From a virus (Duplodnaviria; Heunggongvirae; Uroviricota; Caudoviricetes): a stretch of DNA of 10,643 bases. Below are positions 2,059-10,643 of this stretch, piece by piece (position 1 is the first letter of the stretch; every line of letters begins with the position of its first letter). Below the pieces are notes generated by a model, which saw nothing but the letters and a program-made list of their open reading frames with translations, did not search any database and was not told the DNA's origin. Position numbers and translations under genes: made by a program. Location of the stretch: the IMG/VR virus record IMGVR_UViG_2548876868_000025; one strand, 5' to 3'.

Positions 2059-3114
2059 TTAACCAATTTTGACGGTAACAAATTTTCGAATATCTGCCGG
2101 AACAGGCTGCGGTGCGCTGTGTGTCTGCACGTACTCAATCGCCGGATCGCCGTCTTCAATCCAGTTTTTCGGGTAAAACATGTTTTGCGTTGCGCCCGTT
2201 CTTACCGCTTCCTGTTCCATAATCGCACCATAGGCCACCAGCCCTTTATTGTTGGTGTTGCCCAGGACCAGCAAATCAGGCTCAAGGAAATATTTTTCTG
2301 TGCCGTCGCTGTCAGTGTATTTGCCGGAATAGACGATAAGGGCCAGATCACCAAGATAGCCTTTAAAGCTCACCACTTCGCCCAGGTTTTTACATGCCAG
2401 CTCTGCGGCGGATTCTGAACCACGGGAGAGATCGTACAGTTCACGGAATTTTTTAAAGCTGCGTAACATGCGCCATACATCAACGCCCATAATCATGACG
2501 TTGGCGGGGCAACCTGCCTGATCTGCGTATAGTTCAATGTCATATATTGGGTCGTGTATGTCTTTATCCTGCTCAGACCATTTTTTACCGTCGGCCTGCT
2601 CTATGATGTTTTTTTCCGGTATCTTCCAGTCGATTTCATAGCGTTCTATGCCTTCGCCCTCAATGATGTTTTTTCCGGTCGTTACCGCATTCACCGCCAG
2701 CCATTCAACGCGTGCCTTAATGGCGTTTATCTGGCGGCGCATGTTGCCAGTAATCAGGCGCATACGGCGGTAGGTAGGATCGTTAAGCTGTGCCGGATCT
2801 TCTCCAGCCATGCGCATTATTGTTTTTAATGGATCGATTTCGTGTTTTGGCTTCATGTAGCCAGGGCGGATAATGCTGGTTTCGTACCCTTTATCGCGCT
2901 GAACCTGGCTGCCAACCATAGGCGAACAAAACGCCGACATAGTGACTTCTTCAATATCCAGGTTATCTAACATGATGTCCTGCGTGTTGAATGTCGCCAC
3001 GTTCGGGAAAAACAGCGCGGTAAACAGCGGACTAAATTTAAATTCCGCAATATCCTCGCGATTCAGGTACGCGAAAAGCTGGTGTGTGTTAAGTGCTATT
3101 GCTTTGACTGCCAT
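2059..3114 (-). CDS. major capsid protein, lambda gpE family
   Basis: 351 aa. Multiple blocks match lambda gpE: FKFSPLF/FKFDPLF, RPGYMKPKHEIDP/TPGYVKPKHEVNP, EDPAQLNDPTYRRMRLI/EDPQNLADPAYRRRRII, YPKNWIEDGDPA/YPKNWVTTGDPA. Length matches gpE (341 aa). Confidence 0.9.
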   Translation of the reverse strand: MAVKAIALNTHQLFAYLNREDIAEFKFSPLFTALFFPNVATFNTQDIMLDNLDIEEVTMSAFCSPMVGSQVQRDKGYETSIIRPGYMKPKHEIDPLKTIMRMAGEDPAQLNDPTYRRMRLITGNMRRQINAIKARVEWLAVNAVTTGKNIIEGEGIERYEIDWKIPEKNIIEQADGKKWSEQDKDIHDPIYDIELYADQAGCPANVMIMGVDVWRMLRSFKKFRELYDLSRGSESAAELACKNLGEVVSFKGYLGDLALIVYSGKYTDSDGTEKYFLEPDLLVLGNTNNKGLVAYGAIMEQEAVRTGATQNMFYPKNWIEDGDPAIEYVQTHSAPQPVPADIRKFVTVKIG

Positions 3115-3320
3115 TATTCGCCCCCATAATTTTTGTGCATCCCAAGCGCCGCAAGTAAATAAGATCGCACAAGTGAACCTATCGACGGCTCCGGCGTCAT
3201 CAGCGGATCCAGTCCAGCCGCAACGCCAGCTTCATAGTTTTTTTTGTGGCGCTGCTTGAGCACCTCCACGATTTCGGGGCTTATGTACACCGAAACACCG
3301 CCTTTTTTCTCTTCAGCCAT
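3114..3320 (-). CDS. small protein (68 aa) translationally coupled to the capsid gene; possible ribbon-helix-helix fold, or a small scaffold-like factor
   Basis: TAATG stop/start overlap with the capsid gene. SD-like AGAGGAA upstream of the ATG at 3320. VSVYISPEIVEVLKQ resembles an RHH beta-strand plus helix; function unassigned. Confidence 0.5.
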   Translation of the reverse strand: MAEEKKGGVSVYISPEIVEVLKQRHKKNYEAGVAAGLDPLMTPEPSIGSLVRSYLLAALGMHKNYGGE

Positions 3321-3349
3321 AGTAAGAAATTCCTCTTCGACTAAAAAAA

Positions 3350-3410
3350 TTATAACTGGATGTTTATCCAGTCCTGATTATAATCAGAATTGCATTTTAT
3401 GCAATGATAT
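3350..3410 (-). promoter_or_regulatory. Candidate sigma70 promoter of the capsid operon, overlapped by three palindromes
   Basis: On the minus strand: TTGCAT, a 16-bp spacer, then TATAAT. Palindromes TTGCATtttATGCAA (3391-3405), CTGATTATAATCAG (3374-3387, containing the -10) and CTGGATgtttATCCAG (3356-3371, near the expected transcription start). Confidence 0.5.
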
Positions 3411-3485
3411 TGAGTTATGTTGCAAATTATGAAATGATTATCCCGATCACGAACGCCAGTGCATCCAAAAACCTCATATGCAAAA

Positions 3486-3523
3486 GCCCGATAAGAACCC
3501 TCTGACCTTATCGGGCTTTTTTT
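3486..3523 (+). terminator. rho-independent terminator oriented on the plus strand, with no obvious plus-strand gene upstream
   Basis: Perfect 10-bp stem GCCCGATAAG / CTTATCGGGC (3486-3495 and 3507-3516) followed by 7 T (3517-3523). Confidence 0.6.
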
Positions 3524-3529
3524 GGGCGC

Positions 3530-3551
3530 AAAAAAGCCGGATTGCTCCGGC
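3530..3551 (-). terminator. rho-independent terminator after the 74-aa gene
   Basis: Hairpin GCCGGAttgcTCCGGC (3536-3551) followed on the minus strand by a 6-U run (3530-3535). Confidence 0.7.
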
Positions 3552-3571
3552 TATGTGTGCTGTGTGCTGGC

Positions 3572-3796
3572 TCAGTCTCTGATCTCTTTCAGAAATTCTA
3601 TCAATGCATCTATCTGTTCAGGATTTACCGCCAGCATTTCACCGGATAGAGCACATCTCACAAAACCATGCTGATCCTTTTCAATCAGTGCGCCCGTCTC
3701 CAGGAATGCGCGGTAATCATTGATGCTCATCGTCTCCATGTTGTCAGCATGGTATTTATCACGCTGTTTTAATATCTCATCAAATTTCATCGGCAT
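3572..3796 (-). CDS. hypothetical protein (74 aa), stand-alone transcription unit
   Basis: ATG at 3796 with a GAGGAA SD 9 nt upstream. Bracketed by terminators at 3893-3915 (upstream) and 3530-3551 (downstream). No family recognised. Confidence 0.55.
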   Translation of the reverse strand: MPMKFDEILKQRDKYHADNMETMSINDYRAFLETGALIEKDQHGFVRCALSGEMLAVNPEQIDALIEFLKEIRD

Positions 3797-3892
3797 TGTT
3801 TTTTTCCTCTGTTGTGTCTGTTTGTTTCAGATAGTAACTATGCCTGACCGTGACGAAAACCCGGTAATGCGCCATACCGTTTCAACTGGTGC

Positions 3893-3915
3893 AAAAAAAG
3901 CCGGATTTCTCCGGC
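3893..3915 (-). terminator. rho-independent terminator after the 90-aa gene
   Basis: Hairpin GCCGGAtttcTCCGGC (3900-3915) followed on the minus strand by a 7-U run (3893-3899); the stop codon is at 3923-3925. Confidence 0.7.
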
Positions 3916-3922
3916 TGTTTGA

Positions 3923-4195
3923 TTAGCTGTCTTGGTAATTGCGCCATATTTCATCACCAGCACCATCTATACCCATTTCGGCATAAGTGCGATCGACTGC
4001 CTTTTTCAGGTCTCCGAAATTATCCGGCGGCTCCGGTGCCCTCTGTGCCTTCCTTGAACATTCCAGCCGTCGCATCGTGATGTGATGCCGTTCCTTGTCT
4101 GTCTCCACCAGCTGCATGACTTCACCCCATCGCGCCGCCGCCCTCCGGTAAAAGCCTTTCGCCTCCAGTTCCTCCGCTATGCGGTCATGTACCAT
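3923..4195 (-). CDS. hypothetical small protein (90 aa); weak resemblance to ANR-type small regulators
   Basis: ATG at 4195 preceded by GAGGGGG. The longer 130-aa reading frame would overlap ssb, so the short start is preferred. Motif IAEELEAKGFYRRAAARWGEV resembles an ANR-like helical pattern, unverified. Confidence 0.45.
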   Translation of the reverse strand: MVHDRIAEELEAKGFYRRAAARWGEVMQLVETDKERHHITMRRLECSRKAQRAPEPPDNFGDLKKAVDRTYAEMGIDGAGDEIWRNYQDS

Positions 4196-4205
4196 CGTCA
4201 CCCCC

Positions 4206-4616
4206 TCAGAACGAAATATCATCACCGTAAGGGTCATCGCCTCCCGCTGGTGGCTGATTACCCTGTGTGCCTGTGGTTTTGCGTCTGTTCCCGCCTGGAC
4301 GTGCCGCGCGGGCACTGATTACGCTGTCTGCGATAACCTGCCAGCCCTGCCGCGTTTCTCCGTTCTGTCCGGTCCACTGGCTTACCTGCATCGTGCCGGA
4401 TACGCTGGCAACATCGCCTTTTTGATGTTTAGCCAGGAAGTCGGCCTGTTTGCCAAATGCGATGACCGATAACCATAACGTCGCCTGTCCGTCCTGTGCC
4501 TGGCTGCATGGCAAAGATACCGCCATACGCGCCAGCGTCATCGGTGTGCCCTTGCTGGTCTGTTTTACCTGCGGGTCGTCCACCAGCCGCCCGTAAGCGG
4601 CTATCTGTGCCGTCAT
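4206..4616 (-). CDS. ssb: single-stranded DNA-binding protein
   Basis: 136 aa. OB-fold-like core (LWLSVIAFGKQADFLAKHQKGDVASVSGTMQVSQWTGQNGETRQGWQVIADSV), Gly/Pro/Gln-rich linker and acidic C-terminal tail DDPYGDDISF, comparable to the E. coli SSB DDDIPF tail. ATGA overlap with the upstream gene. Confidence 0.85.
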   Translation of the reverse strand: MTAQIAAYGRLVDDPQVKQTSKGTPMTLARMAVSLPCSQAQDGQATLWLSVIAFGKQADFLAKHQKGDVASVSGTMQVSQWTGQNGETRQGWQVIADSVISARAARPGGNRRKTTGTQGNQPPAGGDDPYGDDISF

Positions 4617-4882
4617 AATTCCACCTCTCCGGTTTTAACGTTGATGGTTGTTACCTGTTCCGCTTCGGCAATCTCCCGTTCTGTCAACGTGGCAAAGTTT
4701 GCCGCTGCTGTGGTCATGAATGCGCTTATCAGGTCGGGATGTTCCTTCGCGTATCCTTCCCCTGCGTGGCGGTCTATTACCCTGATTGCCACCTTTAAGG
4801 CGTGCTCTGTCATGTCTAACGCTTTATATTTCGGCTCTGTTCTGTCTCTGCGCATTTTGGTTATCTCCTCACTCATGCTCAC
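4613..4882 (-). CDS. hypothetical protein (87-89 aa), translationally coupled to ssb
   Basis: Start is GTG at 4882 or ATG at 4876, with GTGAGG upstream. No family recognised. Confidence 0.55.
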   Translation of the reverse strand: MSMSEEITKMRRDRTEPKYKALDMTEHALKVAIRVIDRHAGEGYAKEHPDLISAFMTTAAANFATLTEREIAEAEQVTTINVKTGEVEL

Positions 4883-5068
4883 TTTTACGCCTCACTTTTT
4901 AAAGCGTCTCGCTTCGTCTCACTTGAGATTTTTGTGTTTTGTATGCGCATGTTTCATAAGTGTTTTTTTTACGCCTCACTTTTGAGCATGTATACAGGTG
5001 AGAAAGTGAGCAATCGTGTTAATATTTTGTAAAAACCTCACCATTACTCACTTTTGCTACTCACTTTT
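4878..5068. repeat. Iteron array (candidate replication origin) immediately 3' of the replicase gene
   Basis: CTCACTTTT direct repeats at 4878, 4891, 4975, 5047 and 5060, a variant CTCACTTGA at 4918 and an inverted copy in GTGAGAAAGTGAG (4998-5010). An AT-rich tract lies between them (4921-4970). Confidence 0.6.
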
Positions 5069-6465
5069 TACAGTGGTCCTACATCATCACCATCAATGTA
5101 AATCACGGCGTCTTTTTCCAGTTTGGCTAACCATCGCCGCATATTTTTCACGTCATACCCAAGCCGTTTCATGTCATCACGTAACAGCGGGATCGTGCAC
5201 TTGTCGCCGTTCTGTGTACGTGAACGGATGCACCCCCATAGCGCGGTATGGTTTTCCGTCTTGTTGCCTGCCTCCTCGATGCGCTCCAGTTCAACGGGAG
5301 GGCGCGGCTTATCCACCACCACCAGCGACGTGATTAACTCCCCGTCAGCGTCGGTAAAAAGCTCCACCACGCGTAAGTCATATGCGGCTTCTTTGAGTTC
5401 CTCCGCGTCCTTCATTTTGGTGCATGAGATAACCAGCGCTTCGCTGCCTGCGTCCTCCCTGCGTATCCGGTATTCAGCGTCCAGTGATGCACGAAATGCA
5501 CTGGAACCACGCGCCCCCTTTGTTTCATCCTTGCCGGAATGGTGAACCACCAGCACCGTGGCCCCTGTGCGCCGTTTCAGTTCGTCACAACCACGGATAA
5601 ACGCCCCCATATCACGGGAATCATTTTCATCATTACCACCAAAGCAACGCGCCAGCGTATCCAGAATAATCATGCGTACAGGTTTACCCGTTTCCCGCTC
5701 CACCTGACGGGCAGCGATAACCATTTCATCAACATCAAACGGGGCAGCCGGAAAGATGGGACGGTTTACCAGGTACAGATTTTTCACCTGCTCACCGTGC
5801 ACAACTTCCCACGCTCTCACGCGACGCGGTACACCAATACCGCCTTCACCAACCACATAGAGGACCGCACCATGTGCAACCCTGCGGCCTCCCCAGTGGC
5901 GACCCGTTGAAACGTGACACGCCCACGAACCAGCAAGGAACGACTTATATGAACCGCTCGCCCCGTATATGCTGCATAGCGACGATGCCGGAATAATCCC
6001 CTTTACCACGTAATCTAATTGCGTGTCGTATCCGGCAGATCCAACGCTCATCGGTAGCGTGGTTTTTCGCTGGTGGCTCAGGCTTTCCCCGCGTTCCCAT
6101 GTCTCCCTAAGCCGTGGAAGCTGGTCGCTCCATTCCTCCAGCAATTCGAAATTTTCAGAAAACAGGCGCGCTTCCTGGACTCCTGCGATTGCCAGTTTCG
6201 TGGCGATGGTTAACAACTGCACTTCGTCAATATTTCCGGCACGTATCACTTTCGCCCTGAACCGACCTTTATCAACAATCTGCAAGTTATCCAGTTCGCT
6301 TAACTGATAACGCCCCAGGTAAACGGGAGGGACTGGATCGCCTGCTTTTTTGGCCTGTGCAATGATGTAGTGCTCTGCAAATGAGTGAGCATTATCACCC
6401 GCAAAAATAACCGCTTCGGTGTGTTTATCTTTCGGTAACAGTTTTACATTCGGTGCCAGTTTCAT
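5068..6465 (-). CDS. replication protein with a RecA-like/AAA ATPase core (primase-helicase-type replicase of P4/PICI-like elements)
   Basis: 465 aa. Walker A GASGSYKS and Walker B-like MIILDT followed by an acidic stretch; unassigned N-terminal domain of about 150 aa; C-terminal DNA-binding-like tail. ATGA overlap with the upstream gene. Confidence 0.85.
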   Translation of the reverse strand: MKLAPNVKLLPKDKHTEAVIFAGDNAHSFAEHYIIAQAKKAGDPVPPVYLGRYQLSELDNLQIVDKGRFRAKVIRAGNIDEVQLLTIATKLAIAGVQEARLFSENFELLEEWSDQLPRLRETWERGESLSHQRKTTLPMSVGSAGYDTQLDYVVKGIIPASSLCSIYGASGSYKSFLAGSWACHVSTGRHWGGRRVAHGAVLYVVGEGGIGVPRRVRAWEVVHGEQVKNLYLVNRPIFPAAPFDVDEMVIAARQVERETGKPVRMIILDTLARCFGGNDENDSRDMGAFIRGCDELKRRTGATVLVVHHSGKDETKGARGSSAFRASLDAEYRIRREDAGSEALVISCTKMKDAEELKEAAYDLRVVELFTDADGELITSLVVVDKPRPPVELERIEEAGNKTENHTALWGCIRSRTQNGDKCTIPLLRDDMKRLGYDVKNMRRWLAKLEKDAVIYIDGDDVGPL

Positions 6466-7001: not shown

Positions 7002-7151
7002 TTAATTACCGTCCGTTGTTTTATTTTCTTTCGTGCCAAGTAAGAAAAAGGCCGCTCTTATCAGTTCGGATATTGCAGAAAGCGCATCAGCCGCATCATC
7101 AGATACGCCGGAAAATTCCTGTTTCAGGGAATTAAAACGATCATCACGCAT
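7002..7151 (-). CDS. hypothetical small protein (49 aa)
   Basis: ATG at 7151 overlaps the upstream stop (ATGCGTGA); its stop lies 1 nt before the next ATG. The longer version from 7199 would overlap the upstream gene by 56 nt. Could be non-coding. Confidence 0.3.
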   Translation of the reverse strand: MRDDRFNSLKQEFSGVSDDAADALSAISELIRAAFFLLGTKENKTTDGN

Positions 7152-7365
7152 AACCCCCCCCATTTTCACAATCAGCAATAAGAATATTTTTAGCGTCATT
7201 CAGCGACCGCGTGGCGGTGTATCGGATACATTCCAGGGCGAACAATGTGTATTCTTCCCGTTCTTCCTTTTGTGCAAGCCCTGCTGTGCATTCAATATCA
7301 ATAAGTGCGTGCATCAGCGTAGTGAGCGCGGCGGCTGCTGCGTCCGGTGTGGTTTTATTGTGCAT
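7144..7365 (-). CDS. hypothetical protein (73 aa)
   Basis: ATG at 7365 with AGGGGA 7 nt upstream; overlaps the last codons of the Icd-like gene B. No family recognised. Confidence 0.45.
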   Translation of the reverse strand: MHNKTTPDAAAAALTTLMHALIDIECTAGLAQKEEREEYTLFALECIRYTATRSLNDAKNILIADCENGGGYA

Positions 7366-7528
7366 AGGTTTTCCCCTGACGAATACGGGCGACAAAAATC
7401 AGATGTGCGTGCGGCAACCTGGCGCGGGCTTCGCGTTCAGTGGCTGCGGTAACGGTGTAAATATCAATGCTGCTGTGGTGGCACTGCATAAAGCGCCAGA
7501 CAAAGTAAGGGCGTGCGAATACAGCCAT
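7355..7528 (-). CDS. Icd-like small protein, copy B (57 aa)
   Basis: ATG at 7528 with GGAG 8 nt upstream. FVWRF...TEREARARLP...FVARIRQG pattern, paralogous to copy A; TEREAR motif recalled as typical of P4-type Icd-like proteins. A longer in-frame reading from 7822 cannot be excluded. Confidence 0.55.
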   Translation of the reverse strand: MAVFARPYFVWRFMQCHHSSIDIYTVTAATEREARARLPHAHLIFVARIRQGKTYAQ

Positions 7529-7814
7529 GTGAAAGGCTCCCAGATGAAATTTAAGGAGTCTCGCTACTACGCTGTCAAACATGGTGGCGAGACGTAACAG
7601 GGTTGACAGACTGGTCATCTGGAAACCAGCGAGCGCAAAGGCTCCCCCGTTACGCCCCGCCATAATGCGGGTATGGGTAGGTTTACGGACACAAAAAAAC
7701 CGCTTATCGGATATGGGCGGCTGTCCGCCAGATGTATTCAGGCTGTCAAACCCGGTCGCCATGTGGGCGACGGGTGAAGCATACAGCCCCGTGATAATTT
7801 TTTGCAAGCGGTTT

Positions 7815-8012
7815 TTACGCATGATGTGACCCCTGACGAATACGAGCGGCAAATACAGCAACACAACCTGACGGGCAACGGCTACGCGCTTCGCGTTCCG
7901 TCCAGGCGGTTACGTGGATGATTTGAGATTCTCCGGCACTCAGGGCCAGAAAACGCCACACAAAGGCCGTTTGTGTGTGTACAAGGTGTGGTATATGATT
8001 TACGGCAACCAT
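7815..8012 (-). CDS. Icd-like small protein, copy A (65 aa)
   Basis: ATG at 8012 with GGAG 4 nt upstream. MVAVNHIPHLVHTQTAFVWRFLALS...WTEREARSRCP...VFAARIRQG aligns with copy B. Confidence 0.6.
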   Translation of the reverse strand: MVAVNHIPHLVHTQTAFVWRFLALSAGESQIIHVTAWTEREARSRCPSGCVAVFAARIRQGSHHA

Positions 8013-8141
8013 AACGGCTCCTAGTTTACGTTGTTGGTTAGAAGCCCCGTTACTGCTCCTACAGTGCGGGGCTTTGCTTTTTGTGTTGATTGTGTGTAAT
8101 GTGTCATTACACATAAATACATTACATGAGGTGTAATTAAC
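8013..8141. promoter_or_regulatory. Divergent control region between the Icd-like operon and the RHH gene, with operator-like inverted repeats and a hairpin
   Basis: Inverted repeats GTGTAATG-tgt-CATTACAC (8094-8112) and ATTACA-tgagg-TGTAAT (8121-8138, overlapping the RHH SD). GC hairpin GCCCCG...CGGGGC (8044-8072) followed by a T-rich tract on the plus strand. Confidence 0.5.
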
Positions 8142-8321
8142 GTGTCAACACACAAAAACGAAAGGCGTGGTAATCCTCCGTTCCAGTTCCGTTTAGATCC
8201 TGACTTACGGGAAAAGATGGAAAAGGCACAACAACAGGACGGCGATGATTCTCTTGCTGCCTGGATAAAGCGAATAATCCGCAAAGAATTACAGCAACGC
8301 GGCATAGAACCCAAAGGATAA
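8142..8321 (+). CDS. Arc/ribbon-helix-helix family DNA-binding protein (candidate repressor)
   Basis: 59 aa, GTG start with GAGG 10 nt upstream. PPFQFRLDPDLREKMEKAQQQDGDDSLAAWIKRIIRKEL fits the RHH beta-strand/helix/helix pattern. Not in the ORF track (below its length cutoff). It is the only convincing plus-strand gene. Confidence 0.7.
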   Translation: MSTHKNERRGNPPFQFRLDPDLREKMEKAQQQDGDDSLAAWIKRIIRKELQQRGIEPKG

Positions 8322-8644
8322 AAACTATCAGCGCCGTGGTGTGAGGAACTCCGGCGCATTGCTTTACAGGCGCACACAATGACCAACGAAGAATCAACCA
8401 AAAAAACATCACCTGCACGAAAAAGACGACGCAGAAAGAAAGAGCATGAATCAGAACGATTCGCGCCGTGTTCTTTTGCCCTTGAGAAGTACCTTAAAGA
8501 ATACTCATCAAAGGAGAGAGCTTCGCAGTTATGGAAACGCACTGAAACAGACTGATAGCATTGCCCACCAGCCTGATAGCGGCTATCATGCCCTGGCTTA
8601 TGTTTGTTGACACATAATGCGCAGCGGGTTAATTGTTCAGAAAG

Positions 8645-8671
8645 GCGGCTCCATATCGGGGCCGCTTTTTT
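8645..8671 (+). terminator. rho-independent terminator oriented on the plus strand, ending the RHH transcription unit
   Basis: 8-bp GC-rich stem (8645-8652 paired with 8658-8665, one G-U pair), 5-nt loop, then 6 T (8666-8671). The minus-strand tail is weaker (CTTTCTG). Confidence 0.65.
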
Positions 8672-8697
8672 CGTGTTCGTCATATGAGATACACCCG

Positions 8698-8904
8698 TTA
8701 AGCAGCCGTTACGCGCGCTTCCTGTTCGCGTTCTTTCATCCAGGCGATTACGTCATCCTCATACCATCCCCGACGGCGTAAACCAACACGAAAACCCTGC
8801 GGGAATTCTCCGGCGTTGATCATGCTTTGCAGCGTGCTGTCTGCCTTGATGTGGATAAGTTTTTTTACTTCCTGGCGAAAGATGACTTTTTTGATTGCTT
8901 CCAT
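8698..8904 (-). CDS. alpA: AlpA-family transcriptional regulator / excisionase-like protein
   Basis: 68 aa. ...STLQSMINAGEFPQGFRVGLRRRGWYEDDVIAWMKERE fits the AlpA/Vis pattern (HTH, G-FP, conserved W, C-terminal W). AAGG SD upstream. Located just downstream of int, as in P4-like and PICI elements. Confidence 0.85.
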   Translation of the reverse strand: MEAIKKVIFRQEVKKLIHIKADSTLQSMINAGEFPQGFRVGLRRRGWYEDDVIAWMKEREQEARVTAA

Positions 8905-9401: not shown

Positions 9402-10643
9402 CTACACGGCCCGAATACCCCTTTTACCACTGGCAAGGGTTACGCCCGTTGCCGCCGCCTCGACAAATTCGCCCCACCAGCGCATAAGCACAATGCGTTT
9501 TTCTATGTAGTTGCTCCGGTTGTATGCCCGTCTCACTTCGTTGGTGTCCACGTGGGCTAGTGCGGCCTCGATTACGTCCGGCTCAAATCCTTCTTCGTTC
9601 GCTGCGGTGCTGAATATGGCGCGCATACCGTGAGAAACCAGAATCCCGCCAAACCCCATCCGCCGCAATGCTGCGTTTGCGGTCTGGCTGTTCATAGGCT
9701 GCCGTGGGTCTTTCAGGCTCGGGAAAACATAATCGCGGTGGTGGCTGATTGGTTTCATGGCCTCCAGTACCGCCATGGCCTGACTACAAAGCGGGATAAC
9801 GTGATCACGCCGCATCTTCATGCGTCCGGCGGGTATCGTCCATTGTTGCGCGTCCAGGTCGATTTCTTCCCAGCGTGCTGACGATGCTTCAACCGGACGG
9901 GTTACAGTCAGTAACTGCCATTCAATCAGTAATCTGGTCTGCCGTTCTGTTGCCGATACTGATAAAGCCTGCATAAGCTCCGGCAACTGTTCGGGGCGGA
10001 TTGTTGGCATATGTTTTTTTACAGGGGAGGGGAACGCCTTACGCACATTCATAGCCGGATTGGTATCAATCAGCCCACTGTTGGCGGCGTAATCCATTAC
10101 CTCATTAATTCGCTGCAAAACCCGCTTTAGTGTTTCCAGGTTGCCACGTTCCTTGATGGGGGTAAGCACCTCAACGAACCTGCGAGCGGTCAGGGTGTCT
10201 ATTGGCGTGTTGCCGATGAACGGGAATACATATTTTTCCAGCGAACGCCAGATGTCTTTAATCGTGTTGGGGGCCAGATTCTGGCTGATTTTCACCTGGT
10301 ACCATGCCGCCGCCACATTTTCGAACGTGTTCCCTTGTCTTCGGGCCTCTGTCTCTCTTTTTTGCCTCTCGTGGTCCTGCGGGTCAGTTCCGGCACTGAT
10401 TAACGTCCTGTACTCGCTACGGCGTTTTCTGGCATCAGCCAGGGAAACATCTTCAAGCGATCCAAAACTCAGCAATATTCTTTTTTTGTCCGATGGTCGG
10501 TAGTAGGAAAATCTCCAGAGTTTTGATCCAGACGGTTTGACCAAGAGAAAAAGCCCTCCGCCGTCCTGCAGGGTGTACTCCTTTTGCGCTGGTCTGGCTG
10601 CTTTGATCTGCACTGTGGTTAATGGGTGTGTTTTTCTCGCCAT
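9402..10643 (-). CDS. int: tyrosine site-specific integrase, P4 family
   Basis: 413 aa. N-terminal arm-type DNA-binding region (LTTVQIKAARPAQKEYTLQDGGGLFLLVKPSGSKLWRFSYY) and C-terminal catalytic region with HGMRAIFST (H-x-x-R) and a tyrosine in RRAYNRSNY. The start codon is the last three bases of the window. Confidence 0.95.
   Translation of the reverse strand: MARKTHPLTTVQIKAARPAQKEYTLQDGGGLFLLVKPSGSKLWRFSYYRPSDKKRILLSFGSLEDVSLADARKRRSEYRTLISAGTDPQDHERQKRETEARRQGNTFENVAAAWYQVKISQNLAPNTIKDIWRSLEKYVFPFIGNTPIDTLTARRFVEVLTPIKERGNLETLKRVLQRINEVMDYAANSGLIDTNPAMNVRKAFPSPVKKHMPTIRPEQLPELMQALSVSATERQTRLLIEWQLLTVTRPVEASSARWEEIDLDAQQWTIPAGRMKMRRDHVIPLCSQAMAVLEAMKPISHHRDYVFPSLKDPRQPMNSQTANAALRRMGFGGILVSHGMRAIFSTAANEEGFEPDVIEAALAHVDTNEVRRAYNRSNYIEKRIVLMRWWGEFVEAAATGVTLASGKRGIRAV

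What the first reader, a model, noticed from the sequence alone, without database searches (positions are those of the whole stretch)
8013..8671. Divergent RHH repressor module with about 320 nt of unassigned transcript before its terminator
The only convincing plus-strand gene encodes an Arc-like RHH protein whose start region is covered by TGTAAT/ATTACA inverted repeats, consistent with an autoregulated repressor of the Icd/replicase operon. A strong plus-oriented terminator lies at 8645-8671, so the transcript continues about 320 nt past the RHH stop. That stretch holds two overlapping small ORFs: a 58-aa, highly basic one at 8379-8555 (MTNEESTKKTSPARKRRRRKK...) and a 54-aa one at 8446-8610. 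It could encode a partner protein (toxin-like or anti-repressor-like) or be a structured RNA. A second plus-oriented hairpin with a T-tract at 8044-8085 sits upstream of the RHH promoter inside the icd leader.
Basis: partly seen in the sequence, partly recalled or inferred. Interest (0 to 1): 0.5.

Follow-up and report, generated by a model that had tools for sequence, protein, structure and literature searches.

The report
Hidden repressor operon in PICI satellites
The stretch is a small, mostly overlooked two-gene operon (a ribbon-helix-helix repressor plus a 58-residue basic protein) next to a SymR-like antisense RNA, and together they look like the missing "off switch" of a common family of E. 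coli phage satellites that includes the laboratory model EcCICFT073.

Summary
The window is an EcCICFT073-type phage-inducible chromosomal island (PICI).

- **RHH gene (8142-8321, +):** a real ribbon-helix-helix gene. Its TGTAAT/ATTACA operators change together with the protein's beta-strand across at least six alleles. They overlap a minus-strand promoter whose -35 box (TTGACA) is the reverse complement of RHH codons 1-3.
- **The "unassigned" 320 nt:** a conserved 57-nt spacer, a real 58-aa gene (8379-8555), an 83-nt tail and a plus-strand terminator. The gene has pN/pS 0.29 and occurs only in E. coli/Shigella, in 30% of complete genomes. The model gives an Arg-rich tail plus one helix. The 54-aa ORF is not supported.
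- **ORF58 role:** it fills a variable accessory slot, because the same RHH occurs alone in other elements. A toxin-antitoxin pairing is therefore unlikely. Its function remains unknown.
- **Upstream hairpin (8041-8085):** the terminator of a roughly 77-nt plus-strand antisense RNA that covers the ribosome-binding site and start codon of the first operon gene. It shows strong covariation and 120 G·U against 4 A·C cells. It matches SymR reciprocally but below Rfam's threshold.
- **220-aa minus-strand ORF:** it bridges alpA to the first operon gene in 56 of 74 loci, like P4 eta/kil.

None of this has expression data behind it.

The parts
8142..8321 (+). RHH (Arc-like) repressor gene, 59 aa, GTG start (WP_000103622)
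   Evidence: PHROG 228 'Arc-like repressor', E = 2e-6. The AF2 model has two helices at pLDDT above 90, and its Foldseek matches are mostly RHH proteins at rmsd 0.7-1.0 Å. 117 homologues, most from Enterobacterales. pN/pS is 0.37 in frame and about 1 in the other plus frames.
8093..8137 (.). Operator: four hexamers, TGTAAT 8095 / ATTACA 8106 / ATTACA 8121 / TGTAAT 8132, forming two palindromes
   Evidence: Seen directly in the sequence. Conserved wherever this RHH allele occurs, in Serratia, Yersinia and E. coli. Replaced by different repeats in each other RHH allele.
8119..8148 (-). Predicted promoter of the Icd/replicase operon: -35 TTGACA (8148→8143, the reverse complement of RHH codons 1-3), 18-nt spacer, -10 TAATGT (8124→8119)
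   Evidence: Best minus-strand consensus match. A perfect TTGACA at this position gives the best promoter in 64 of 74 distinct regulatory regions. The proximal palindrome lies across its spacer and -10 box. This is an inference; the promoter has not been mapped.
8007..8085 (+). SymR-like cis-antisense RNA of about 77 nt. SL1 is 8007-8039 with the anti-Shine-Dalgarno CUCCU in its loop. The terminator hairpin is 8041-8076, with a U tract to 8085. It is complementary to the SD and ATG (8012) of the first minus-strand gene.
   Evidence: Covariation. 120 G·U against 4 A·C cells, and a T tract only on the plus strand. SL1 is more stable on the plus strand in 71 of 72 loci. CM R1 scores 68.7 bits here and finds K-12 symR at 32.2 bits, E = 6e-5. 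Rfam SymR hits the same place in relatives at 36-41 bits, against a gathering score of 61.
7994..7999 (+). Predicted -10 box (TATGAT) of the antisense RNA, 7 nt upstream of the inferred start at A8007
   Evidence: Same layout as K-12 symR, which has TAGAAT, then 7 nt, then the annotated 5' end AGTCAT. TAnnnT hexamers sit at this position in the relatives. Confounded by the coding sequence on the other strand.
8322..8378 (+). Conserved 57-nt spacer with hairpin GCGCCG 8331-8336 / CGGCGC 8352-8357 and a weak SD (AGG) upstream of ORF58
   Evidence: The spacer is exactly 57 nt in every module variant, including EcCICFT073. Its sequence is highly conserved. The fold is not significant on its own (z = -0.99).
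8379..8555 (+). ORF58: 58-aa basic protein (WP_162829750), with a disordered Arg-rich N-terminus and one long helix
   Evidence: PHROG 21027, E = 2.5e-13. 23 clusters, all named ones from E. coli or Shigella. Only 9 representatives among 1.84e9 proteins. pN/pS is 0.29, against 0.96 and 1.25 in the other plus frames; variable columns by codon position are 12/14/26. AF2 mean pLDDT is 71, with helices 24-27 and 29-57.
8556..8638 (+). 3' untranslated tail; contains a conserved Chi site (GCTGGTGG on the minus strand, 8572→8565) at the point where module variants diverge
8639..8676 (+). Intrinsic terminator of the RHH-ORF58 transcript
   Evidence: 14-bp hairpin followed by a short U run. An analogous plus-oriented hairpin plus T tract is present in all variants.
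8021..8683 (-). 220-codon 'bridging' ORF, antisense to the whole module. Its ATG lies 14 nt after the alpA stop, and its TAG lies 8 nt before the ATG of the first operon gene.
   Evidence: The stop-free span in this frame has a median of 534 nt, against 86 and 99 nt in the other minus frames. 56 of 74 loci have at least 100 codons: 34 run in frame into the first gene and 14 stop 8-19 nt before it. 34 of 42 start within -40 to +25 nt of the upstream gene's stop. EcCICFT073 has a 428-codon version. There is no amino-acid-level constraint.
7815..8012 (-). First gene of the minus-strand operon (Icd-like, 65 aa); the target of the antisense RNA
   Evidence: NCBIfam NF033153, 64.7 bits. SD AGGAG at 8023→8019, then ATG at 8012.
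8698..8904 (-). alpA-type HTH gene, convergent with the RHH operon
   Evidence: Pfam Phage_AlpA and HTH_17, both below their thresholds, and PHROG excisionase/regulator families. RefSeq annotation.

Best explanation
The region is the maintenance (immunity) module of an EcCICFT073-type PICI.

1. **Repressor.** RHH dimers bind the four TGTAAT hexamers. These sit in the spacer and -10 box, and at the start, of a minus-strand promoter whose -35 box is formed by RHH codons 1-3. Binding would shut off the Icd/DUF4222/helicase operon and would probably also limit RHH's own expression. This step is inferred.

2. **The 320 nt.** The RHH transcript continues through a fixed 57-nt spacer into ORF58. ORF58 is a real 58-aa protein with an Arg-rich tail and one helix. 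The transcript ends at the 8639-8676 terminator. ORF58 occupies an accessory slot that holds other genes, or nothing, in related elements. It is most likely a lineage-specific accessory factor made together with the repressor while the island is silent, possibly one that binds nucleic acid. It is not an obligatory partner or a toxin.

3. **Antisense RNA.** Just upstream, a SymR-like antisense RNA (about 8007-8083) would pair with the SD and AUG of the first operon gene and block leaky translation.

4. **Override.** On the other strand, an ORF starts 14 nt after alpA and ends 8 nt before that first gene. It would let AlpA-driven read-through, coupled to translation, override all three controls, as P4 eta does. 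This step is inferred from the geometry only.
For: **Context**
- The window is 100% identical to an E. coli DEC9B island at tRNA-Pro, with int, alpA, RepA helicase, SSB, PerC, capsid, decoration and TerS genes.
- EcCICFT073 has the same layout. It carries a YlcI/YnfO RHH, a 57-nt gap and a 57-aa ORF58 homologue.

**RHH**
- PHROG 228 and an RHH fold.
- Specificity alleles each have their own repeats: TGTAAT, GGTAATTACC, TGTGCGCACA, GTGTAAGACAC, GTGTTGAACAC and GGTGTGGCCCAC.
- Divergent promoters overlapped by the repeats.

**ORF58**
- Coding signature, in-frame indels and synonymous CGA/AGA and CTT/TTA changes.
- As strong a signal as RHH's own.
- Present in 1601 of 5426 complete genomes.
- RHH-only elements exist, and the slot content varies between genera.

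**Antisense RNA**
-.

**Bridging ORF**
-.
- The P4 eta/kil mechanism is summarised in PMC10111431.
Against: - There are no expression, binding or phenotype data of any kind.
- No consensus promoter for RHH itself was found in this short-spacer allele. The gene has a GTG start and a modest SD.
- Foldseek E-values are above 1, because the domain is tiny. No Pfam family reaches its threshold, and NCBIfam YlcI/YnfO scores 20 bits against a cut-off of 30.
- The window's RNA does not hit Rfam SymR even at E ≤ 10.
- Published work on EcCICFT073 describes unidirectional transcription and induction by AlpA overexpression alone, with no repressor identified (PMC6092414).
- ORF58's function is a guess.
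- The loci are related by descent, so counts across loci are not independent.
- About a quarter of the loci (18 of 74) lack a long bridging ORF.
Confidence: 0.6

Rival explanations
1. Type II toxin-antitoxin pair: RHH is the antitoxin and autorepressor, and ORF58 is a small toxin.
For: The gene order (RHH first), the small sizes, the apparent co-transcription and a basic downstream protein resemble RHH-antitoxin operons. A Yersinia relative of this RHH sits next to a RelB/YafQ pair.
Against: ORF58 matches no Pfam family at its threshold and no NCBIfam or PADLOC family. The model is one helix plus a disordered tail, not a toxin fold. RHH that is 86-88% identical is common with no downstream partner. 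RHH has only about 6 residues after helix B, too few for a toxin-neutralising tail. ORF58 is shuffled among unrelated RHH alleles.
Confidence: 0.07
2. Only the minus-strand long ORF is real (a P4 eta-like or 'ORF3' gene). The plus-strand RHH and ORF58 are its shadow ORFs.
For: The long ORF is conserved as an open frame and is coupled to alpA and to the first gene. PGAP and gene callers often annotate it. The published EcCICFT073 description has unidirectional transcription (PMC6092414).
Against: pN/pS is lowest in the plus frames: 0.29 and 0.37, against 0.50 and 0.55 for the antisense frame. The RHH fold and PHROG match support a real plus-strand protein. Operator and beta-strand co-vary. Plus-oriented terminators with a G·U strand bias are present. 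The minus-strand translation is Cys/Ser/Arg-rich and matches no family.
Confidence: 0.08
3. ORF58 is a regulator that is integral to the switch. It could be an Arg-rich RNA-binding factor acting on the leader hairpins or on C4/SymR-like pairing, or a co-repressor. On this view it is not an accessory gene.
For: It has an Arg-rich motif (SPARKRRRRK) followed by an amphipathic helix. The 57-nt linkage to RHH is fixed and the spacer is conserved. ORF58 stays the same while RHH alleles change.
Against: It is confined to E. coli and Shigella, whereas the RHH, hairpin and operator architecture spans several orders. RHH-only E. coli elements with the same architecture exist. In other genera the slot holds unrelated genes.
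Confidence: 0.2
4. The upstream hairpin acts in the minus-strand mRNA, as a 5'-leader stabiliser or attenuator, and does not terminate a plus-strand RNA.
For: It lies within the predicted 5' UTR of the operon and also folds on the minus strand (-28.4 kcal/mol for the leader).
Against: There are 120 G·U against 4 A·C cells. T content after the stem is 6.0 of 10 on the plus strand and 1.3 of 10 on the minus strand. The plus strand is more stable in 67 of 72 loci for the terminator and in 71 of 72 for SL1. There is a reciprocal match to SymR on the plus strand.
Confidence: 0.08

Closest known systems
P22 immI region (Arc and Mnt RHH repressors plus sar antisense RNA) (comparison from my own knowledge)
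   Same: Small RHH repressors bind palindromic operators between divergent promoters. A short antisense RNA covers the ribosome-binding site of the controlled gene. A further gene is co-transcribed after the RHH (arc-ant).
   Different: There is no sequence relation beyond the fold. The controlled operon here is a satellite replication operon, not an antirepressor. The antisense RNA is SymR-like, not sar (the sar model scores 11.7 bits). ORF58 is unrelated to Ant.
SymE/SymR of E. coli K-12 (Rfam RF01809)
   Same: A 77-nt, two-stem cis-antisense RNA. Its -10 box lies inside the target's first codons, and it starts just inside the target gene's 5' end (symR overlaps symE by 6 nt). It covers the SD and AUG. 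The sequence and structure match is reciprocal.
   Different: Scores fall below Rfam's gathering threshold, and the window's copy is not detected by the Rfam model. The target is an Icd-like/Ash gene, not SymE. The RNA sits in a mobile satellite next to an RHH operator, not next to a LexA-controlled promoter (the LexA point is from my own knowledge).
Satellite P4 immunity region (PLE/PLL, nested kil/eta, CI RNA)
   Same: The order is an alpA/vis homologue, then a long ORF spanning an internal promoter, with a 65-aa first gene nested in it or abutting it. A C4/CI-type RNA lies downstream. The logic is that translation from the upstream promoter overrides immunity (summary in PMC10111431).
   Different: P4 has only 180 nt between ORF88 (vis) and the annotated cI ORF. 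That leaves no room for an RHH/ORF58 cassette. P4 also has no SymR-like hit. Here a protein repressor operon and an antisense RNA are encoded antisense inside the eta-like ORF.
pMV158 copy control (CopG RHH plus antisense RNA II) (comparison from my own knowledge)
   Same: Dual control of a replication operon by a small RHH transcriptional repressor and a countertranscript that blocks translation initiation.
   Different: That system is on a plasmid, where CopG is co-transcribed with rep rather than divergent from it. There is no homology beyond the fold (CopG is among the Foldseek matches).
SaPI/Gram-positive PICI master repressor Stl (Rpr)
   Same: A repressor gene transcribed divergently from the excision/replication operon, on the int side of the switch (description in PMC6092414).
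   Different: Stl proteins are larger HTH proteins that are relieved by helper-phage proteins. Nothing is known about how this RHH would be relieved. Gram-negative PICIs were reported to lack such a divergent pair.

Membership tests
Ribbon-helix-helix (Arc/MetJ/CopG) DNA-binding proteins | N-terminal beta-strand followed by two helices (the fold) | tested here: met
   AF2 gives helices 20-33 and 38-52 at pLDDT above 90. The monomer model leaves the strand region (residues 12-19) unassigned. The Foldseek matches are mostly RHH proteins (NikR, CopA_SO, Arc, CopG, MazE9, PutA) at rmsd 0.7-1.0 Å, but with E above 1. PHROG 228 'Arc-like repressor', E = 2e-6.
Ribbon-helix-helix (Arc/MetJ/CopG) DNA-binding proteins | Sequence match to a curated RHH family at its threshold | tested here: not met
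   No Pfam family reaches its threshold. NCBIfam YlcI/YnfO_N scores 20 bits against a cut-off of 30 for the window allele. The EcCICFT073 allele scores 67 bits and is a member. The PDB sequence search found nothing relevant.
Ribbon-helix-helix (Arc/MetJ/CopG) DNA-binding proteins | Binds repeated or palindromic operator half-sites as dimers or tetramers | not testable with these tools
   Only indirect evidence: each allele has its own repeats, and the beta-strand residues change with them.
SymR antisense RNA (Rfam RF01809) | Score at or above Rfam's gathering threshold (61 bits) | tested here: not met
   No hit in the window at E ≤ 10. Relatives score 35.9-41.2 bits.
SymR antisense RNA (Rfam RF01809) | Two stem-loops (anti-SD loop, then terminator), about 77 nt, on the strand opposite the target's 5' end | tested here: met
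   Structure and covariation. A CM built only from satellite copies finds the annotated K-12 symR (32.2 bits, E = 6e-5) as the single match in that 20-kb K-12 locus.
SymR antisense RNA (Rfam RF01809) | Target gene is symE (an SOS-induced toxin) | tested here: not met
   The target here is an Icd-like protein (NF033153).
Type II toxin-antitoxin system | The downstream gene belongs to a toxin family and is obligatorily paired with the antitoxin | tested here: not met
   ORF58 matches no family at threshold. RHH occurs without it in E. coli and Serratia elements.
P4 eta/kil-type nested leader ORF | A long ORF begins upstream of the internal promoter, next to the alpA/vis homologue, and contains or abuts the first short gene | tested here: met
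   Window ORF 8683→8021: 14 nt after alpA and 8 nt before the ATG at 8012. 48 of the 56 long ORFs run in frame into the first gene or stop 8-19 nt before it. EcCICFT073 has a 428-codon ORF ending at the Icd-like stop.
P4 eta/kil-type nested leader ORF | Its translation prevents premature termination or immunity | not testable with these tools
   Inference from P4, as summarised in PMC10111431.
Gram-negative PICI (EcCICFT073 type) | int, alpA, a replication module, then a packaging/capsid module, integrated at a specific site, 10-15 kb | tested here: met
   Annotation of the identical DEC9B island at tRNA-Pro, and the gene-for-gene similar layout of EcCICFT073.

The most novel reading that the evidence does not exclude
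The roughly 700-bp segment between alpA and the replication operon is a two-strand genetic switch. One strand encodes the 'off' state: the RHH master repressor, ORF58 and a SymR-like antisense RNA. The other strand carries an eta-like ORF that is translationally coupled to alpA. Its transcription and translation run antisense through the repressor operon and deliver ribosomes to the first operon gene, giving the 'on' state. The two states exclude each other. On this reading the RHH is the master repressor that Gram-negative PICIs, including EcCICFT073, were thought to lack, and E. coli symER is a domesticated remnant of such a switch.
Probability: 0.35. Interest if true: 0.8.

Novelty: new variant of a known kind. 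Interest (0 to 1): 0.62.

Why it matters
Gram-negative PICIs are described as being transcribed in one direction, and whether they have a global repressor is stated to be unclear (PMC6092414). A later four-zone model lists only immunity RNAs in this region (PMC10111431).

This analysis finds three unreported parts in the model island EcCICFT073:
- a divergent RHH repressor operon with allele-specific operators;
- a SymR-like antisense RNA;
- an alpA-coupled bridging ORF.

ORF58-like DNA is in 30% of complete E. coli genomes. The RHH and antisense-RNA architecture occurs in satellites across Enterobacterales, Orbaceae, Pasteurellaceae and Aeromonadales.

If these parts work as proposed, they explain how the islands stay silent and how AlpA overrides that silence. 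They also define immunity groups among co-resident islands and give SymR an evolutionary context. In addition, the region is frequently mis-annotated as an antisense 'Icd-like' pseudogene. Each part can be tested with simple reporters in an existing experimental system.

Tried and rejected
- **54-aa ORF (8446-8610).** Rejected: no coding signature, and the frame is truncated in three variants.
- **Structured RNA in the 320 nt.** Rejected: z-scores of -1.0 and -1.7, and no Rfam hit.
- **Toxin or defence role for ORF58.** No Pfam family at threshold and no NCBIfam or PADLOC match. tblastn against phage genomes found nothing. An exhaustive profile search gave only 9 representatives, none from a different context. 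I ran no fold search on the ORF58 model, because a single helix is uninformative.
- **220-aa minus ORF as a plain shadow ORF.** I first dismissed it this way. I revised that view once its open frame proved to extend beyond the coding parts and to be anchored at both ends.
- **Consensus promoter for RHH in this allele.** None found. Longer-spacer alleles do have clear back-to-back promoters.
- **PDB sequence search with the RHH profile.** Nothing useful.
- **Literature.** Searches found no description of an RHH, SymR-like RNA or repressor in Gram-negative PICIs. The P4 eta/kil paper (PMC94026) is not held, so I cite it through PMC10111431 and from memory.
- **P4 itself.** It has no RHH cassette and no SymR-like RNA.
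Full report
**Context.** The window is identical to an 11-kb island of E. coli DEC9B inserted at a tRNA-Pro gene next to yejM. All its large genes are on the minus strand: int (9402-10643), a 76-aa gene, an alpA-type HTH gene (8698-8904), two Icd-like genes, DUF4222, a RepA-family helicase, SSB, PerC, major capsid, decoration and TerS. Rfam finds a P1-type C4 antisense RNA (7667-7580, 71.6 bits). Its a1b1 target and an isrK-like element, both below their gathering scores, lie between the two Icd-like genes. EcCICFT073, the experimental model for Gram-negative PICIs, has the same order and near-identical right-hand genes. The window is therefore an EcCICFT073-type PICI.

**Observation check.** RefSeq already lists the RHH ORF and the 58-aa ORF as hypothetical proteins in DEC9B. 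In many related islands the region is instead left empty or annotated as an antisense 'Icd-like' pseudogene.

**The RHH gene**
- *Family and fold.* It matches PHROG 228 'Arc-like repressor'. The model has two confident helices, and its structural matches are mostly RHH proteins: NikR, CopA_SO, Arc, CopG, MazE9 and PutA. Their rmsd is 0.7-1.0 Å, although the E-values are weak for so small a domain.
- *Distribution.* Homologues at 55-98% identity occur across Enterobacterales, and in Mannheimia and Frischella.
- *Co-variation with the operator.* A related island is 83% identical overall, but it diverges sharply in just two places: the operator (TGTAAT becomes GGTAATTACC) and the N-terminal half of RHH. 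The C-terminus and everything downstream stay conserved. Other islands carry further alleles with their own repeats: TGTGCGCACA, GTGTAAGACAC, GTGTTGAACAC, and GGTGTGGCCCAC in EcCICFT073. Wherever the window's allele occurs (Serratia, Yersinia, E. coli), the TGTAAT layout is kept. This co-variation is the main evidence that the protein binds these repeats.
- *Promoters.* In 64 of 74 distinct regulatory regions the best minus-strand promoter uses a perfect TTGACA formed by the reverse complement of RHH codons 1-3. In the window it is TTGACA (8148→8143), an 18-nt spacer, then TAATGT (8124→8119), with the proximal palindrome lying across the spacer and -10 box. Longer-spacer alleles show clear back-to-back promoters overlapped by the repeats. 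Repression of the Icd/replicase operon is thus well supported by anatomy, but it has not been shown. No convincing promoter for RHH itself was found in this allele.

**The 320 nt after RHH**
- *Composition.* It consists of a 57-nt spacer, ORF58 (8379-8555), an 83-nt tail and the terminator.
- *ORF58 is a real gene.*
  - It matches PHROG 21027 (E = 2.5e-13).
  - It has 23 homologous clusters, all the named ones from E. coli or Shigella.
  - It always begins exactly 57 nt after the RHH stop, whatever the RHH allele, integrase or replicase.
  - Indels are in frame, and there are synonymous CGA/AGA and CTT/TTA replacements.
  - pN/pS is 0.29 in its frame, against 0.96 and 1.25 in the other plus frames. 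That signal is as strong as RHH's own (0.37).
- *Abundance.* DNA similar to the spacer-ORF58 stretch occurs in 1601 of 5426 complete E. coli genomes.
- *Narrow family.* An exhaustive profile search of 1.84 billion representatives found only nine proteins.
- *Model.* The AF2 model has a disordered basic N-terminus (SPARKRRRRK) and one long helix. No Pfam family reaches its threshold, and NCBIfam and PADLOC give nothing.
- *Rejected alternatives.* The 54-aa ORF has no support. The RNA folds of the spacer and tail are unremarkable.
- *An accessory slot.* The same RHH allele (86-88% identical) sits in the same place without ORF58 in other E. coli islands and in Serratia. In other genera the position after RHH holds nothing, a small lipoprotein-like ORF, a second RHH, or larger cargo. 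ORF58 is therefore the E. coli-specific occupant of an accessory slot co-transcribed with the repressor. This argues against an obligate toxin-antitoxin or repressor/anti-repressor pair. Its function is unknown. My best guess, with low confidence, is a nucleic-acid-binding accessory factor made while the island is silent.

**The upstream hairpin**
- *Covariation.* I aligned this region from 58-70 distinct loci drawn from E. coli assemblies and from a scan of one genome per species. Ten of 13 hairpin pairs show compensatory changes. With a second stem added, 14 of 21 pairs do so, and every measure exceeds all 500 shuffles and all slid registers.
- *Strand.* There are 120 G·U cells against 4 A·C, and the T tract exists only on the plus strand (6.0 against 1.3 T per 10 nt).
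- *Second stem.* A further stem-loop (8007-8039) presents the anti-Shine-Dalgarno sequence in its loop. It is more stable on the plus strand in 71 of 72 loci.
- *Link to SymR.* Rfam's SymR model hits exactly this element in three relatives (36-41 bits, below the 61-bit threshold). A covariance model built only from the satellite copies finds the annotated symR of K-12 as its single match in that 20-kb K-12 locus (32.2 bits, E = 6e-5). The same model scores 68.7 bits in the window and 50.3 bits in EcCICFT073.
- *Promoter layout.* It also matches. K-12 has TAGAAT, 7 nt, then the annotated 5' end AGTCAT. The window has TATGAT (7994-7999), 7 nt, then AACCAT at 8007.
- *Conclusion.* The hairpin is the terminator of a roughly 77-nt SymR-like antisense RNA that is complementary to the SD and ATG (8012) of the first operon gene. 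P4 has no such element.

**The minus strand**
- *First view, then revised.* I first dismissed the 220-codon ORF 8683→8021 as a shadow ORF. RHH and ORF58 share one frame, and their third codon positions coincide with those of this ORF.
- *Open frame.* Across 90 loci, the stop-free span in that frame has a median of 534 nt (maximum 1884), against 86 and 99 nt in the other two minus frames. Stops are also depleted in the non-coding leader and downstream of RHH.
- *Anchored ends.* Of 74 loci with landmarks, 56 have at least 100 codons. Of those, 34 run in frame into the first operon gene and 14 stop 8-19 nt before its ATG. Thirty-four of 42 start within -40 to +25 nt of the stop of the upstream gene, which is alpA or the last cargo gene. 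In the window the gaps are 14 nt and 8 nt.
- *EcCICFT073.* It has a 428-codon version that ends at the Icd-like stop codon. This is probably the 'ORF3' whose expression AlpA activates (PMC6092414).
- *No protein-level constraint.* The amino-acid sequence is unconstrained and not protein-like.
- *P4 parallel.* This is the geometry of P4 eta/kil. There, translation from the upstream promoter, coupled to the alpA homologue, overrides immunity-dependent termination (summary in PMC10111431; Forti et al. 1999, from memory).

**Proposed mechanism**
- *Shown:* the anatomy, the conservation, the coding and structure signals, and the strand assignment.
- *Inferred:*
  1. RHH represses the internal promoter.
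  2. The SymR-like RNA blocks translation of the Icd-like first gene, and C4 controls the second.
  3. ORF58 is an accessory product of the repressor transcript.
  4. AlpA-driven transcripts are translated from the alpA stop across the plus-strand terminator, ORF58, RHH and the leader. This suppresses termination, interferes with the convergent repressor operon and delivers ribosomes to the first gene.

**Comparison and novelty.** RHH repressors, SymR and the eta/kil logic are each already known. What is new is their combination on two strands of one 700-bp segment. Their presence in Gram-negative PICIs is also new: these elements are described as unidirectionally transcribed, with no identified repressor (PMC6092414), and a later survey lists only immunity RNAs in this zone (PMC10111431). 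My literature searches found no earlier description.

**Limits**
- Nothing here shows expression or binding.
- The RHH promoter is unresolved.
- Family thresholds are not met by the window's RHH or by its RNA.
- The loci are phylogenetically related, so counts overstate independence.
- ORF58's role is open.

Noticed in passing
window, whole (sites at 2235, 4105, 4246, 4580, 5319, 5547, 6069, 6531, 8565, 9474): There are ten Chi sites (GCTGGTGG) in 10.6 kb, seven of them on the minus strand. Shuffles predict 0.34, and none of 200 shuffles reaches 10. This suggests protection of replicating or packaged island DNA from RecBCD.
   Followed up: partly
window 8565-8572 (-): One Chi site lies 10 nt after the ORF58 stop. 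It is conserved in nearly all module variants, and it sits exactly where the variants' downstream sequences diverge. It may be a recombination junction for cargo exchange.
   Followed up: partly
window 7580-7784 (-): A P1-type C4 antisense RNA (7667-7580, 71.6 bits) lies between the two Icd-like genes. Its a1b1 target (7784-7735, 45.7 bits, just below the 46.7-bit threshold) and an isrK-like terminator element (35.3 bits, below 50) lie there too. This is a second, RNA-based immunity layer downstream of the RHH/SymR-like one.
   Followed up: partly
window 7815-8012 (-), compared with L003 2916-3473 and L002 2524-3084: The first operon gene appears to be a recombinant. Related islands have an 'ash family' segment followed by an Icd-like gene. 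The window lacks about 390 nt between two 87-nt repeats that are 77-78% identical, which fuses an Ash-type N-terminus to an Icd-like C-terminus.
   Followed up: partly
L123 6767-8053 (+), EcCICFT073 in NC_004431: A 428-codon ORF starts 53 nt after alpA, runs antisense through the ORF58 homologue and the RHH gene, and ends at the stop of the 66-aa Icd-like gene. It is probably the 'ORF3' used as an AlpA-dependent reporter in the 2018 PICI paper.
   Followed up: partly
L002 3238-3753 (-) and many hits: PGAP often annotates the antisense strand of ORF58/RHH as an incomplete 'host cell division inhibitor Icd-like protein' pseudogene and omits the intact RHH and ORF58 genes. This looks like a systematic mis-annotation.
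   Followed up: partly
L041 3583-3664 and 4369-4451 (+): One E. coli island carries two tandem copies of the regulatory module: two SymR-like RNAs and two ORF58-like genes of 81 and 65 aa. A 785-codon minus-strand ORF (3046-5403) spans both copies.
   Followed up: no
L044, L048, L057, L084 (4 nt after the RHH stop); L079, L081, L083 (4-7 nt after it): In other genera the slot after RHH holds either a 47-53-aa ORF with a signal-peptide/lipoprotein-like N-terminus (MKKIIILAAVLIVAAFLLKSC...) or a second, DUF3950-type RHH gene.
   Followed up: no
L032-L034 4001-4797 (Yersinia enterocolitica): The same RHH allele and hairpin occur next to a RelB/YafQ toxin-antitoxin pair, beside P2-like tail genes. 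This is a different context from the satellites.
   Followed up: no
L047 4396-4463 (-): The Rfam 'int-alpA RNA' motif (RF02996, 40.3 bits, above its threshold) is present in a Mangrovibacter relative. No such hit was found in the window.
   Followed up: no
window 7002-7395 (-): RefSeq marks the gene here (L001 8103-8466) as frameshifted. The window shows two ORFs (7144-7395 and 7002-7199) in its place.
   Followed up: no
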